A stretch of 45,537 nt of DNA from a candidate division WOR-3 bacterium. Lineage in GTDB: Bacteria; Hydrothermota; Tepidihabitantia; Tepidihabitantales; Tepidihabitantaceae. The position numbers were made by a program. The DNA is taken from positions 1-45,537 of the forward strand of contig CBFGIT010000021.1 of assembly GCA_965648905.1 (NCBI GenBank), read 5' to 3'. The number at the start of each line of letters is the position of its first letter. Positions within the stretch are counted from its first letter, which is position 1. Shown piece by piece: positions 21,001-24,000 of the stretch.

Positions 21001-24000
21001 GGGCCGGGCTCTGCTCGAACGCGGCCAGACCCGGTCGGCAATCGACGAACTGCGTACTGCCCTGCAGTTGGACCCGGGCGCGACCGACGCAAGATACGAA
21101 CTGGCCCGCTCCCTTCGAGAGTCGAACGACCTTGCCGGTGCTGAGGCTGAACTCAAAGAACTCCTCCGCCAGAATCCCGACTTCCCCGACGCACACGCTC
21201 TTCTCGGCACGGTCCTGCTCGAACAGGGCGATAACCAGGCGGCGATCGAAGCTCTGAGCGTTGCGCTCAGACAGACACCGAATGACGCCATGCTCCACAA
21301 CAACTTAGGCGTTGCCCTGGACCAACTGGGCCGGGTTGACGAAGCCGAGCAGGAGTTCAGACGGGCACTCGAACTCGCCCCCAACCTTGCCCTGGCTCAT
21401 AACAATCTCGGCGAAGTTCTCCTCCGCCGCGGCGACCAGCAGGCAGCCCTGGCCCAGTTCCGACAGGCGCTCGCTTCAAACCCGGACTACGGATTGGCGC
21501 TCTTCAACCTTGGCCTGCTACATGAAGCCCAGGGCAACCGGGAAGAAGCCTTGCGGGCACTGCTTCGCGCTCAGGAGTTGATGCCCGATTTTTCGGGCGT
21601 TGCCGAGGCGCTCCGGCGCATCCGGTCCCAAAAGCCTTGGGAAAACTGAAAGCCCGGACAAGCCGGGCTTTCGGTATGCTGATGCGTCCTATTCGACCAG
21701 AACCAGCCGCGTGACCTGCTGGTGAGGTCCGGCCGCAAGGCGCAGGTAGTATGCACCGCGGCCCACAGCCTTGCCGTCCTCATCGCGACCGTCCCAGACC
21801 GCTTCGTGCTGTCCGGTCGGCTCCAGCCCGGAACGCAGGGTCCGTACCAGGCTGCCTGAGGCCGAGTACACCCAGAGATTGACAAATCCCGGACCAGCCA
21901 GAGAGTACTGCACTGCCACCCGGCCACGGGCTGGATTGGGCCGGGCCGAGAACCGTCCCAGGGTCAGCGCCCGCCGCTCCTCCAGCCCCGAGACGCGCAC
22001 CACGCGCACCTCGCCGGTCAACAGGTTGTTGGCCAGATTCATGTCCGGCCGGTACGTGCCGACCGTACAGCGGGTTGCAAAAGTACCCAGCTCCAAGGGA
22101 GTCCAGGCCCGCAGCGACGCCGTATCACACCGCCCGGCGGCGAGCACAACAGTCGTGCTCTCAACATAGCTCGTGCCGATGAAGAACTTCACCCTGGCCA
22201 TGTCCTGCAACGTGCCGTTGTTTCGGACCTCAACCATGGGCACGACCGCAACACCTGAGTCAACACTGTCCACCGGTGCCAGAATCGCGGTCACCGCCAC
22301 GTCATAGACGTTCACCGTGATATTCAGGCGCTGCCGGTTGTTACTGCCGACCGCGTCGCCGGCAAGCTCGGTTGTGCAGGTCACAACCGACTGACCGCGC
22401 ATCCGCGGACTCCAGTCCGGGAACTGCACGTGTCGAACCGTACCCGGTTCGTGGTTCGTAACCGTGACGGTCGTGTCGTACTCGGTGCCGATGCGCATGC
22501 GTACCGGATAGGTCTCGACGTTCGACGCGTAGTTGTACACCGAGCAACTCGGCGTAACCACTACGCCTGAATCGAGCGTGCCGGTCGGCGCGGCAATGCC
22601 CATCACGCCGACATCATGCTCAATCTGACCCGGCAGGTACTGCTCGATTATCTGGCGGATGAGCTGCTCGTTGAAGCCCTCTTGGAAGAACCGAATGACC
22701 CCTTCCGGGTCTACGACATAGTTCAACGGGATGTAGCCGTTCTGCCGGTAAATGCCCCAGACCGTGCCGTTATCCCGCAGATAGGGATTGGTATTCTGCC
22801 GGGCATACGACCGGACAATCGACATGTCTTCCGACAGATTGATTGCCAGAGCAACAAACCCCTGATTACGGTAGTCTTCATACATTACGGAAAGGCGCGG
22901 TAACTCCGCGCGGCACTGCGGTCAGCTCGACTGCCAGAAGTTCAGCAGTACGACCCGGCCGGCGTACTCGGTGAGCTGATGGTTCACCCAGGCAGTATCA
23001 GGCAAAGTGAAGTTCGGCGCCTGGTCGCCGACATTCAGCACGGCCAGCGCGGTCCCGGGCAGAAGCCCGGCCAGCGCCAGCACAGCAATACGGACTCCGG
23101 TTCTCATGTGTCCTTCTTTCGAGCTTGATTATCGTTCGCAGTCCTGCGTCTCGCAACTATTCTAGCGCCAGGTGCGAGCCGGTCAAGTCCGCGCAGCCGC
23201 CGGAACCCGAACGTGAACCACCAAGCACACCAAGGGCACGAAGAGGAAGAAGCCGAATACAGAATGCAAATTGCAGAATGCAGAAGGCAAAATGGCGAAG
23301 AGCGAAGAGCTAACGGCGGGCGGCGCTTACGCGACGGGTGTCAATAATTTCGGCATGTGTCACCGGAATTCCGAGAAGGCAGAATACAGAGTGCAGAAGG
23401 CAAAGGGCAGAATGACGAAGAGCGAGAAGCGAAAGGCGAAGGACGAGTGGCGACCTTGGCGGTCTTGGTGGTTAGTGGTTCGCCTGCGCTTACGCGACCG
23501 GTGTCAATAATCCCGGCATGTGTCACCGGAATTGTCCGACCGCCATTACCCTGCTATGCTGTCCAACGCCAACGACTCAATCCTTGTCGGTGCCTAGTAC
23601 AGAATGCCAACTAGACCGATGCCGACGTGTAGCGTCAGGCCGTCCTCTGTTTCGTCGTAATGCGTGAAGCGGTCGAAGACCAACCCGAACTCGAACGGGA
23701 TACCCACGTGCGGAACAACCTGCATCATCACTCCGCCCGATGCCTTGAACCGCATGCCGTTCAGGTCATATGTGGACGAGTATTCATCACTGGTGTGCAA
23801 ACGCGCATAGCCGAAGCCCAGTCCGAAGAACGGCAGGGACTTGCTGCCCGCATCTCCGAACACCGCCACCGCCTTCGGACAGATCGCGAAGCCAGTGTAT
23901 GTGGCAGTAGTAGCGTAGTAGCCGCCGTAGCCGTAGCGCTCATAGGTCACCAAATTGACACTTACCGAGAGGTCAGCACCCAGCCCGATTCCACGTGATA

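What a model noticed while it worked through the whole genome (the two positions that open the first line are those of the whole stretch)
21689..23107. Selenoproteome made almost wholly of exported T9SS cargo: 18 secreted Sec proteins versus 2 cytoplasmic (SelD)
A scan of all in-frame TGA codons finds 21 selenoprotein genes: the two SelD copies (g00987 with N-terminal extension to the TGA at C8:88927; g00520, TGA at C4:87661) and 19 genes for proteins with signal peptides and mostly T9SS C-terminal sorting domains. Beside the CBM-like (8), propeller (3) and Omp28-like (3) families these are two TlpA/AhpC-like thiol-disulfide oxidoreductases with W-x-S-[SG]-U-x-x-C fused to CARDB-like repeats and a T9SS tail (C21:21689-23107-, C3:95373-96140-), an FG-GAP propeller (C11:20944-22107-), a beta-propeller-repeat protein (C16:1693-2964+) and a small T9SS protein (C8:~33470-34505+). 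None of the usual cytoplasmic selenoenzymes (FdhA, HdrA, MvhD, GrdA/B, Prx, [...]
Evidence so far: Calls 7, 8, 26, 28 (all gene pairs split only by TGA), 45, 72, 77, 94 (SECIS-like hairpins; no further credible sites), 75 (SelD contexts VTCAG-U-ASK and AKAAG-U-AAK; FlpD, HdrA-like, Molybdop_Fe4S4, Prx genes end at true stops), 27 and 69 (read-through TlpA-like protein: AhpC-TSA 1e-19 spanning the TGA plus FlgD_ig tail), 73, 113, 114 (TGA kept in relatives for the C16, C11 and C8 genes), 125-126 (8th CBM-like member). 104 T9SS type-A cargo genes, SprA g01117, 13 PorV-like.
(Added by a program. Inside this text positions count along the whole contig: contig position 1 is position 1 of the stretch shown here. 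"Call 12" and the like, gene names such as g00115 and contig names such as C1 are that model's own, and its searches are not shown. The text may have been shortened before it was handed on; [...] marks where a part breaks off. The agent that wrote the report below was given it as the finding of a first reader that could run no searches.)

Follow-up and report, generated by a model that had tools for sequence, protein, structure and literature searches.

The report
Exported selenocysteine proteins, mostly T9SS cargo
The "broken" gene is one intact gene for an exported thiol-disulfide enzyme whose internal UGA is read as selenocysteine, and nearly all other selenoproteins of this uncultured bacterium also look exported, which is unusual for bacteria.

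Summary
Confirmed. Window 21689-23107 (-) is one gene of 472 codons with a single in-frame TGA (22922-22924). It encodes a signal peptide, a ResA/TlpA-like thioredoxin domain (motif W-Q-S-S-U-P-Q-C), two Ig-like repeats and a T9SS-type C-terminal domain.

Evidence for Sec:
- Of 42 homologues in relatives, 39 carry TGA and 3 carry TGC (Cys) at this codon.
- A 6-bp hairpin starts 10 nt after the UGA. It is paired in 39 of 39 Sec forms, with one perfectly covarying pair, and is degraded in 2 of 3 Cys forms.
- The genome has tRNA-Sec, selA, selB and two Sec-containing selD genes.

The second SelD came from an HMM search. No further credible site appeared. The 19 non-SelD proteins all have hydrophobic N-termini, and 14-15 of 19 carry a tail matching the genome's T9SS sorting domains. 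No FdhA is present, and FlpD and Prx homologues have no in-frame stop.

Corrections: the title says 18 but the count is 19. "CARDB-like" has no HMM support. Only the C21 gene has the repeats. Export is inferred.

The TlpA-like and Omp28-like families are catalogued. The CBM-like and propeller families and the exported bias are not. This scan had already flagged two other selenoprotein genes of this genome (e1-1431286, e1-4974363).

The parts
21689..23107 (-). Whole selenoprotein gene, 472 codons plus stop. It is one reading frame when TGA at codon 62 is read as Sec.
   Evidence: orthologues of the same length with 1 TGA in relatives
23042..23107 (-). Signal peptide, residues 1-22 (MRTGVRIAVLALAGLLPGTALA), ending in A-L-A just before the conserved V-L-x-V-G-D-x-A-P-x-F.
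   Evidence: sequence; the same N-terminal pattern in 10 of 10 aligned orthologues; crude heuristic positive; pLDDT below 50 for residues 1-21. No SignalP was available.
22628..23032 (-). ResA/TlpA/CcmG-like thioredoxin-fold domain, residues 26-160, with active site U62-P-Q-C65, Glu68 and Pro127.
   Evidence: Pfam AhpC-TSA 1.2e-19, Redoxin 1.8e-13; ResA structures at TMt 0.86-0.90, rmsd 1.6-2.2; in the phmmer alignment U62 falls on the first Cys of CxxC in a Geobacter thioredoxin-family protein (3hdc) and a ResA variant (3c71)
22922..22924 (-). UGA codon 62, read as selenocysteine.
   Evidence: 39 TGA and 3 TGC at the aligned codon in 42 homologues
22895..22911 (-). SECIS-like hairpin GCGCGG-AGUUA-CCGCGC, a 17-nt element starting 10 nt after the UGA. 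It lies inside the codons for R-A-E-L-P-R.
   Evidence: -10.3 kcal/mol; all 6 pairs formed in 39 of 39 Sec homologues; pair 13-29 is G:C in 25 and U:A in 14; the loop Leu codon is UU[AG] in 39 of 39 against 8.3% of Leu codons genome-wide
22313..22615 (-). Ig-like beta-sandwich repeat 1, residues 165-265.
   Evidence: all-beta in the model; 33% identical to repeat 2, E 3e-10; no Pfam family at E<=10
21992..22312 (-). Ig-like beta-sandwich repeat 2, residues 266-372.
   Evidence: homologous repeats occur in many large T9SS-tailed proteins of this genome and its relatives
21692..21955 (-). C-terminal sorting-type domain, residues 385-472. It is a 7-strand beta-sandwich with a PNP motif near its start, then G-x-Y and an L-V-L-V-E end.
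   Evidence: Pfam FlgD_ig 3.9e-11; TIGR04183 only 16.9 bits against a cut-off of 23; E 1.1e-10 against a profile built from 20 non-selenoprotein T9SS tails of this genome; E 2e-5 against a tail that passes TIGR04183; model pLDDT 91; PorU 6za2 TMq 0.70 and PorZ 5m11 0.62, but also FlgD and other Ig folds
25454..26656 (-). PorV-like gene on the same strand, 2.3 kb upstream. This is context, not shown to be co-transcribed.
   Evidence: Pfam PorV 3.3e-7, 30.5 bits against a cut-off of 27

Best explanation
The gene encodes a selenoprotein. The UGA at codon 62 is decoded as selenocysteine by SelB and tRNA-Sec, directed by a 17-nt hairpin 10 nt downstream.

The product is made in the cytoplasm and exported by the Sec translocon through an N-terminal signal peptide. 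It is then most likely passed through the type IX secretion system by its C-terminal domain to the cell surface or the medium.

The working end is a ResA/TlpA-type thioredoxin fold. Sec replaces the exposed, attacking Cys of the CxxC motif, giving U-P-Q-C. The protein would therefore work as an extracytoplasmic thiol-disulfide (selenenylsulfide) oxidoreductase, held away from the cell by two Ig-like spacer domains.

It is one of 19 exported selenoproteins in this genome, beside two Sec-containing SelD. The Sec machinery of this lineage therefore serves mainly its exported proteome.

Shown by sequence: the UGA, the hairpin with covariation, Sec/Cys homologues, the machinery, and the fold.
Inferred: actual Sec insertion, the T9SS route, surface location, substrate and electron donor.
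For: One frame with a single TGA, and a Trx-family domain spanning it.

The aligned codon is TGA in 39 and TGC in 3 of 42 homologues, across family f1 at 48-88% identity. At phylum level, 29 of 32 matches carry 1 TGA, in 20 of 151 genomes.

The hairpin is paired in 39 of 39 Sec forms. G:C (25) and U:A (14) covary perfectly; the U:A form pairs an R-to-L change (CGC to CUC) on the 5' arm with a synonymous CGC-to-CGA change on the 3' arm. The rare Leu codon UU[AG] occurs in 39 of 39. Two of the 3 Cys forms use CUG and break the stem.

The genome has tRNA-Sec, selA, selB and two selD genes with TGA.

Fold and active site:
- ResA at TMt up to 0.90, rmsd 1.6.
- U62 aligns to the first Cys of CxxC; E68 and P127 align to a Glu and a Pro in the ResA variant 3c71.
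- E68 and P127 are invariant in 11 orthologues.

Export:
- Signal-peptide-like N-termini in all 11 aligned orthologues.
- Tail E 1.1e-10 against this genome's T9SS tails.
- SprA, PorU-like and PorV-like genes, and 144 cargo tails.

Genome-wide set.
Against: There is no protein-level evidence that Sec is inserted.

The tail misses NCBI's T9SS cut-off (16.9 against 23 bits). Its fold is a generic Ig sandwich that also matches FlgD and peptidase domains.

Both PorU-like genes score below the NF033707 cut-off (357 and 354 against 420 bits).

No electron donor outside the outer membrane is known. A single CcdA/DsbD-type membrane protein exists, which would fit a periplasmic job just as well.

My signal-peptide heuristic is weak: 16 of 19 positives against 232 of 600 control ORFs.

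My scan needs coding signal on both sides of the TGA. It missed one SelD, so Sec sites very near an N-terminus could remain undetected.
Confidence: 0.8

Rival explanations
1. The protein is a selenoprotein but stays in the periplasm. There it acts like ResA/CcmG/TlpA and is re-reduced through the CcdA/DsbD-type membrane protein. On this reading the C-terminal Ig-like domain is a structural or binding module, not a T9SS signal.
For: TIGR04183 scores only 16.9 bits against a cut-off of 23. The best Pfam hit for the tail is FlgD_ig. Fold matches are generic. One DsbD_TM gene is present. All characterised relatives found by fold are extracytoplasmic enzymes, not secreted ones.
Against: The tail hits a profile made only from non-selenoprotein tails that pass TIGR04183 in this genome, at E 1.1e-10 without iteration. 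It aligns to a passing tail at E 2e-5 with the PNP, GxY and terminal hydrophobic motifs. Paralogues with a homologous repeat-plus-tail region pass the cut-off, e.g. C11:68038-68268. The best TMq among fold hits is to PorU.
Confidence: 0.13
2. The domain works as a peroxidase (Prx/AhpC-type, or GPx-like with Sec) that detoxifies peroxides at the cell surface, rather than as a thiol-disulfide oxidoreductase.
For: The best Pfam hit is AhpC-TSA. There are weak hits to PrxU and to thiol peroxidase (4.6e-4 and 8.3e-5). Recalled, not from a call: Sec in place of the attacking Cys is typical of peroxide-reducing selenoenzymes.
Against: The motif W-x-x-x-U-x-x-C-R-x-E-x-P and the fold match ResA/CcmG/TlpA (TMt 0.86-0.90), not 2-Cys Prx. 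The conserved Prx motif PxxxTxxU, quoted in Table 1 and text of PMC13188914, is absent. The NCBIfam peroxiredoxin hits are far below their cut-offs.
Confidence: 0.1
3. The TGA is a real stop. On this reading there are two genes or a pseudogene, or TGA is read through as another residue by a general code change.
For: Gene callers split the gene. Rfam finds no SECIS family here.
Against: The TGA is kept in 39 of 42 homologues down to 48% identity, and the other 3 have Cys. A catalytic domain spans the TGA. The upstream 61-aa piece would be a signal peptide with one third of a Trx fold. There is RNA-level covariation. TGA is a frequent ordinary stop at T9SS tails in this genome. The Sec machinery is complete.
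Confidence: 0.02

Closest known systems
Thiol-disulfide isomerase-like / Prx-like thiol:disulfide oxidoreductase / Redoxin-family selenoproteins (UxxC; cd02966, PF00578, PF08534), as listed in Table 1 of the 2026 review PMC13188914 and in the Sargasso Sea survey PMC1088965
   Same: Thioredoxin fold, with Sec in the first position of a UxxC motif, a Cys-form homologue alongside, and a SECIS hairpin just downstream in the coding region.
   Different: Here the domain is followed by two Ig-like repeats and a T9SS-type sorting domain. In my term searches of the review ('secret', 'signal peptide', 'exported', 'periplasm', 'T9SS': 0 occurrences each) and of the Sargasso paper ('signal peptide', 'secreted', 'periplasm', 'extracellular': 0 each), neither paper uses these export terms. 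I read Table 1 and sections 7 (parts 1-2) and 10 of the review, and only passages of the Sargasso paper.
Bacillus subtilis ResA, and CcmG/DsbE, TlpA and Etrx (extracytoplasmic thiol-disulfide oxidoreductases with solved structures)
   Same: Fold at TMt 0.86-0.90, rmsd 1.6-2.2 over about 138 columns. The W-x-x-W-C-x-x-C-[KR]-x-E-x-P type active-site stretch, with a Glu and a Pro at the aligned positions. Location outside the cytoplasm.
   Different: Those proteins use Cys, not Sec. They are membrane-anchored or periplasmic and are recycled by CcdA/DsbD. None has a T9SS tail. Sequence identity is only 24-29%, and the ResA NCBIfam score of 68 bits is far below its cut-off of 170.
NCBIfam NF041054 'ResA-like WAxxUGC motif-containing protein' and NF045500 'Omp28-related selenoprotein' (= GOS_C)
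   Same: Both are curated exported-type selenoprotein families. The three Omp28-like genes of this genome are distant relatives of NF045500 (best 60 bits).
   Different: The target scores 25.6 bits against a cut-off of 300 for NF041054, and its motif is WQSS-U-PQC, not WAxxUGC. The Omp28-like genes score 28.7-60 bits against a cut-off of 200.
E. coli fdhF-type bacterial SECIS read by SelB
   Same: A short hairpin in the coding sequence immediately 3' of the UGA, with G and U in the apical loop. Recalled, not from a call: the E. coli minimal element is also a 17-nt stem-loop placed 11 nt after the UGA.
   Different: The sequence is different. No Rfam family matches. SelB binding was not tested.

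Membership tests
Bacterial selenoprotein gene (SelB-dependent UGA recoding) | In-frame UGA inside a continuous coding frame | tested here: met
   Single TGA at codon 62 of 472. The dicodon coding score is positive and best-of-six-frames on both sides.
Bacterial selenoprotein gene (SelB-dependent UGA recoding) | Stem-loop (bSECIS) directly downstream of the UGA, conserved at the RNA level | tested here: met
   A 17-nt hairpin 10 nt after the UGA. It is paired in 39 of 39, with one covarying pair and a rare Leu codon fixed in the loop. There is no Rfam match, which is expected for these poorly conserved elements.
Bacterial selenoprotein gene (SelB-dependent UGA recoding) | Homologues with Cys at the aligned position | tested here: met
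   3 of 42 homologues carry TGC (L034, L043, L066). ResA and a Geobacter thioredoxin-family protein have Cys there.
Bacterial selenoprotein gene (SelB-dependent UGA recoding) | tRNA-Sec, SelA, SelB and SelD in the same genome | tested here: met
   tRNA-SeC at C35:7817-7911. selA 560 bits, selB 348 bits, selD 354 and 325 bits, all over their cut-offs.
Bacterial selenoprotein gene (SelB-dependent UGA recoding) | Selenium actually present in the protein | not testable with these tools
   Needs 75Se labelling or mass spectrometry.
TlpA/ResA/CcmG-like thiol-disulfide oxidoreductases (cd02966) | Thioredoxin fold with the family's extra N-terminal hairpin and central insert | tested here: met
   Foldseek gives ResA 2h1b TMt 0.90, 2f9s 0.89 and DsbE 3gl3 0.86. 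The inserts were not inspected individually.
TlpA/ResA/CcmG-like thiol-disulfide oxidoreductases (cd02966) | CxxC active site at the N-terminus of helix 1, followed by [KR]-x-E; a Pro in the loop opposite it | tested here: met
   U62-P-Q-C65-R-A-E68. P127 aligns to the Pro of ...LPTTF... in the ResA variant 3c71. That this Pro is the cis-Pro is recalled, not from a call. C65, E68 and P127 are invariant in 11 orthologues. The first Cys is replaced by Sec.
TlpA/ResA/CcmG-like thiol-disulfide oxidoreductases (cd02966) | Score over the curated family cut-off | tested here: not met
   NF002854 ResA 68.2 bits against 170, and TlpA NF047696 36 against 230. The protein is a family-level relative, not an equivalog. 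The Pfam domain cut-offs are passed.
T9SS type A cargo | N-terminal Sec-type signal peptide | tested here: inconclusive
   The pattern is typical (positive n-region, hydrophobic core, A-L-A) and conserved in orthologues. Only a crude heuristic was available, and it passed 39% of control ORFs.
T9SS type A cargo | C-terminal domain matching TIGR04183 / PF18962 | tested here: inconclusive
   TIGR04183 gives 16.9 bits, below the cut-off of 23, and PF18962 was not reported. Against that, E is 1.1e-10 to a profile of 20 bona fide tails of this genome and 2e-5 to a passing tail.
T9SS type A cargo | T9SS machinery in the genome | tested here: met
   SprA 456 bits over its cut-off. Two full-length PorU-like genes at 357 and 354 bits, below the cut-off of 420. 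A PorV-like gene in the window. 144 tails over the cut-off. PorK/L/M/N were not searched.
T9SS type A cargo | Secretion depends on T9SS and the tail is removed | not testable with these tools
   Needs experiment.
NCBIfam NF041054 WAxxUGC_long selenoprotein | WAxxUGC motif and a score of at least 300 bits | tested here: not met
   25.6 bits; the motif is WQSSUPQC.
   No Pfam family at E<=10 for either repeat. They are Ig-like beta-sandwiches related to each other at E 3e-10. A CARDB-like fold remains possible but was not shown.

The most novel reading that the evidence does not exclude
This lineage keeps the whole selenocysteine machinery essentially for its exported proteome. In the TlpA-like, Omp28-like, C8, C16, C11, C30 and C27 proteins (11 of 19), Sec sits within five residues of a Cys: UxxC, CxxU, CU or UCxxxC. 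In the remaining CBM-like and propeller proteins, conserved Cys lie elsewhere in the same domain.

The proposal is that Se-S bonds act as redox-robust cross-links or catalytic centres for surface and secreted T9SS cargo in a reducing, probably anoxic, habitat. Ordinary disulfides would not hold there, and no cellular reductant is at hand. That would be a new ecological use of selenium in bacteria. It would also add at least four uncatalogued selenoprotein families: CBM-like, BNR/Sortilin propeller, FG-GAP propeller, and the C16 and C8 types.
Probability: 0.3. Interest if true: 0.85.

Novelty: new variant of a known kind. Interest (0 to 1): 0.7.

Why it matters
Bacterial selenoproteins are usually described as cytoplasmic or respiratory redox enzymes. 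The most widespread families are FdhA and SelD (PMC13188914, section 7). The richest selenoproteomes are in anaerobes such as Thermodesulfobacteriota, Synergistota and Clostridia (same review, section 10).

Here a 3-Mb genome with no FdhA carries 19 Sec genes that all look exported, most with T9SS sorting tails. The same genes recur with their UGA across a whole family of uncultured bacteria. This matters in three ways:

- Gene callers cut all these genes in two, so secretome and CAZyme/peptidase inventories of this phylum are systematically wrong.
- It points to a role for selenium outside the cell, which can be tested by metaproteomics and with recombinant Sec and Cys variants.
- It offers compact, well-defined SECIS elements, 17 nt long and 10 nt from the UGA, with natural covariation, which are useful for engineering Sec insertion.

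Tried and rejected
- My first codon-usage scan (118 candidates) used thresholds that were too strict. It missed the target (downstream score 0.25) and both SelD genes, so I replaced it with a dicodon scan.
- A second scan tuned for Sec near the N-terminus (42 candidates from 177) gave nothing new. It still did not list the SelD genes.
- The 31 other candidates with hairpins of -6.5 kcal/mol or better looked like terminators after true stops, or next-gene starts shortly after the TGA (MnmA-like, GcvT-like, nitroreductase-like and HicB-like N-termini, judged by eye). I rejected them. They were not run through Pfam.
- Rfam on the SECIS region gave only a chance hit (STnc310, E 4).
- The search for related loci in genome contigs gave one full-length relative, an unnamed MAG at 79% identity. 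It also gave three tail-only matches, in Cloacimonetes, Rhodothermales and Fibrobacterota MAGs. The phylum therefore stayed unnamed.
- The protein-atlas search on SelA gave no usable taxonomy.
- Pfam on the two middle repeats found nothing, so 'CARDB-like' stays unproven.
- Paper searches gave no relevant paper: selenoprotein + 'type IX secretion' (1 unrelated paper), selenocysteine + T9SS (2 papers, judged unrelated from title and abstract start only), selenoprotein + Omp28 (none). Cell Rep 2026 45:116760 (Deng et al., groundwater MAGs), cited by the review, is not in the searchable library. It could list some of these families, and I did not see it.
- In one search my minus-strand coordinates dropped the first codon of the minus-strand genes. 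One search used corrected coordinates. The Pfam domain calls are not affected.
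Full report
**What is at the coordinates.** Under table 11 the minus strand of window 21689-23107 holds two ORFs in the same frame. One is 61 codons (22922-23107) and the other 398 codons (21689-22885). Only a TGA and a few codons up to the next ATG separate them. 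Reading TGA through gives a single 472-residue protein with one TGA at codon 62 (window 22922-22924), in the context F-W-Q-S-S-U-P-Q-C-R-A-E-L-P. Pfam AhpC-TSA (1.2e-19, residues 26-140), Redoxin and Thioredoxin_8 all span the TGA. FlgD_ig (3.9e-11) covers residues 396-459. The 61-codon piece alone would be a signal peptide plus one third of a thioredoxin fold.

**Is the UGA selenocysteine?** The genome is 3.01 Mb in 60 contigs, 62% G+C and 99.6% complete. It encodes:
- tRNA-Sec at C35:7817-7911
- selA at 560 bits
- selB at 348 bits
- two selD genes, each with one in-frame TGA

In 61 related genomes the full-length gene recurs, nearly always with one TGA. I fetched 42 homologues of the thioredoxin domain: the window's gene, its short paralogue on C3, and 40 from relatives. 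At the aligned codon, 39 have TGA and 3 have TGC, that is Cys in a C-G-H-C or C-P-Y-C motif. At phylum level, 29 of 32 matches at E<=1e-22 carry one TGA. They lie in 20 of 151 genomes, namely 13 of 14 sampled members of family f1 and three other families.

**The hairpin.** Ten nucleotides after the UGA lies GCGCGG-AGUUA-CCGCGC, at -10.3 kcal/mol. In the 39 Sec forms:
- All six pairs are formed in 39 of 39.
- The outermost pair is G:C in 25 and U:A in 14. It switches together without exception: CGC...CGC against CUC...CGA. The 3' change is synonymous.
- The loop Leu codon is UUA or UUG in 39 of 39, while these two codons make up 8.3% of Leu codons in this genome.
- Of the three Cys forms, two use CUG and have a mismatched or lost stem.

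This is the pattern expected of a SECIS element under RNA-level selection that relaxes once Sec is replaced. Rfam has no matching family.

**What the protein is.** An AlphaFold model built from 11 orthologues has mean pLDDT 78. It shows:
- a disordered N-terminus (residues 1-21)
- a thioredoxin-fold domain
- two beta-sandwich domains (about 165-265 and 266-372)
- a flexible linker (374-384)
- a final beta-sandwich (387-470)

The first domain superposes on B. subtilis ResA (TMt 0.86-0.90, rmsd 1.6-2.1), Chlorobium DsbE, CcmG and pneumococcal Etrx2. In the sequence alignments to a Geobacter thioredoxin-family protein (3hdc) and a ResA variant (3c71), U62 falls on the first Cys of CxxC. C65, E68 and P127 align to the second Cys, a Glu and a Pro of the ResA variant. 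All three are invariant in the orthologues. From recalled knowledge of ResA, these are the attacking Cys, the resolving Cys, the conserved Glu and the cis-Pro.

The two middle domains are 33% identical to each other (E 3e-10). They match no Pfam family, CARDB included, even at E<=10.

**The tail.** It scores below NCBI's T9SS cut-off (TIGR04183 16.9 against 23 bits). I built a profile from 20 tails of non-selenoproteins that scored best on TIGR04183 in this genome. That profile finds the target's tail at E 1.1e-10 among 12,121 C-termini, without iteration. The tail also aligns to a passing tail at E 2e-5. A separate model of the tail (pLDDT 91) resembles the PorU and PorZ structures (TMq 0.70 and 0.62), but also FlgD and other Ig-like domains. 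I read the tail as a probable T9SS sorting domain, not a proven one.

The machinery is present: SprA at 456 bits, two full-length PorU-like genes just under their cut-off, 144 tails over the TIGR04183 cut-off, and a PorV-like gene 2.3 kb upstream in the window.

**The genome-wide claim.** I trained a dicodon model on long ORFs. I then listed every in-frame TGA with coding signal in the same frame on both sides, which gave 235 candidates. Aligning their flanks against the genome showed families in which TGA aligns with TGA or Cys:
- six CBM-like genes (C1, C52, C14, C3, C31, C23), plus two 'C-U' variants (C30, C27)
- three propellers (C1, C9, C10)
- the two TlpA-like genes
- three Omp28-like genes (C17, C18, C1), with Cys paralogues on C4
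- C16, with a Cys paralogue on C11
- C11 and C8
- SelD on C8

The SelD on C4 was found only by HMM.

Hairpin statistics:

| Set | -8 kcal/mol or better | -6 kcal/mol or better |
|---|---|---|
| 20 scanned Sec sites | 14 of 20 | 18 of 20 |
| 1500 random genomic windows | 11.5% | 23.8% |
| Other 215 candidates | 7.4% | not computed |

The loops are mostly GGUC, AGUU or GGU, and the CBM-like stems show compensatory variants (GCGAAG, GCGGAG, GCAGAG). Among the remaining candidates none was convincing.

Domain searches gave Sortilin/BNR, FG-GAP and Omp28 domains, and Por_Secre_tail at varying strength.

Conservation of the TGA in the 36 other genomes of family f1:

| Family | Matches with one TGA |
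|---|---|
| CBM-like | 77 of 78 |
| Propeller | 58 of 58 |
| Omp28-like | 28 of 58 (rest without a stop) |
| C16 | 6 of 9 spanning the site |
| C8 | 13 of 24 (the 11 without are 33-37% identical) |

**Export.** By eye, all 19 have a positively charged, hydrophobic N-terminal segment. My crude script passes 16 of 19, but it also passes 232 of 600 control ORFs, so it adds little. The three misses failed only the cleavage-site pattern. The genome-specific tail profile hits 14 of 19 at once and 15 of 19 after two rounds. C27 and C1:118060 have no tail, and C16 and C8 have only a short G-V-Y-F...L-L-V-type end.

**Missing cytoplasmic selenoenzymes.** There is no FdhA (best hit 57.5 bits against a cut-off of 666). 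Three FlpD/MvhD genes have no stop. Of six AhpC-TSA genes, only the two T9SS-tailed ones carry TGA.

**How it probably works.** The chain is synthesised with Sec at position 62, exported through the Sec translocon, and folded in the periplasm. It is then handed by its tail to the T9SS and ends up on the surface or in the medium. Sec occupies the attacking position of the CxxC motif, so the redox cycle would run through a selenenylsulfide with C65.

Recalled chemistry, not from a call: the selenol is deprotonated at neutral pH, is a better nucleophile and leaving group than a thiol, and resists irreversible over-oxidation. That would suit an enzyme working where no thioredoxin system is at hand.

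The substrate is unknown. Reduction or reshuffling of disulfides in extracellular protein substrates would fit a genome full of secreted peptidases, for example the S8 subtilase in the window. A periplasmic ResA-like role, fed by the single CcdA/DsbD-type protein, and a peroxidase role are the main rivals.

**Comparison with what is known.** I read Table 1 and sections 7 (parts 1-2) and 10 of the 2026 review PMC13188914. It lists 119 prokaryotic selenoprotein families. These include the thiol-disulfide isomerase-like (cd02966, UxxC), Prx-like thiol:disulfide oxidoreductase, Redoxin and UGC-TlpA families, and GOS_C (NF045500, NCBI's 'Omp28-related selenoprotein'). The target is therefore a new architectural variant of a known selenoprotein kind.

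The table has no CBM-like, BNR/Sortilin or FG-GAP entry. The words 'secret', 'signal peptide', 'exported', 'periplasm' and 'T9SS' do not occur in the text. Searches for selenoprotein with 'type IX secretion', selenocysteine with T9SS, and selenoprotein with Omp28 found nothing relevant. A large MAG survey cited by the review (Cell Rep 45:116760) was not available to me and may overlap.

Two earlier notes of this scan on other contigs of the same genome had reached the same reading for single genes: e1-1431286 for the CBM-like gene on C1, and e1-4974363 for the FG-GAP gene on C11. My searches agree with them.

**Verdict.** The single gene is a new variant of a known family. The genome-level pattern is the interesting part: a selenoproteome of 19 exported proteins, mostly T9SS cargo, beside two SelD. 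I could not find it described. All statements about Sec insertion, secretion and function remain sequence-based inference.

Noticed in passing
L013-L031 and window 22913-22924 (all 19 exported Sec genes): Eleven of the 19 Sec residues lie within five residues of a Cys: UxxC (TlpA-like x2, Omp28-like x3), CxxU (C8: Y-C-G-G-U), CU (C16, C30, C27) and U-C-x-x-x-C (C11). The CBM-like and propeller families instead have conserved Cys motifs elsewhere in the domain (GGGSSTCWP; SCGN[IV]CG). This suggests Se-S pairs throughout.
   Followed up: no
G000:C8:88040-90884 (L002, L009) and G000:C4:87631-88554 (L008): selB and a Sec-containing selD lie head to tail on C8. A second Sec-containing selD sits on C4. 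Two Sec-SelD copies in a 3-Mb genome is unusual.
   Followed up: partly
G000:C8:34606-34974, next to L030 (C8:33519-34505): A FlpD/MvhD homologue without any stop lies about 100 nt downstream of the small C8 selenoprotein gene, on the same strand.
   Followed up: no
G000:C1:118765-119112, next to L027 (C1:117874-118671): A Cys-type AhpC-TSA gene follows the tail-less Omp28-like selenoprotein gene directly. It is a possible redox partner pair.
   Followed up: no
window 31637-32707 (-): A class-V aminotransferase (Aminotran_5, 9.1e-21), the family that includes cysteine desulfurases and selenocysteine lyases. It lies 8.5 kb from the selenoprotein gene, and no link is shown.
   Followed up: no
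window 16109-17815 (+), 17844-19796 (+), 19793-21649 (+), 29312-31567 (-): The neighbourhood is dominated by envelope and secreted functions: an FG-GAP protein, two TPR proteins (one of which, 17844-19796, also has a weak PMT_2 glycosyltransferase hit below its cut-off) and an S8 subtilase.
   Followed up: partly
G000:C13:~297, C43:~127; C10:~473, C58, C49, C35; C11:~96308, C43, C29, C6, C55: Repeated elements, 65-97% identical and mostly at contig ends, have an in-frame TGA aligned between copies. They are probably IS elements with two in-frame ORFs. No SECIS-like hairpin was noted.
   Followed up: no
G000:C54:9213-9302 (-): ARAGORN reports a 'tRNA-???' with a two-base anticodon (tc). It is unexplained.
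   Followed up: no
L043 (G015:C56) residues ~415-461: One Cys-form orthologue has swapped the long tail for the short G-P-G-V-Y-Y...K-V-I-V-Q-H type end. The same short end is seen on the C11 gene and, in similar form, on C16 and C8.
   Followed up: no
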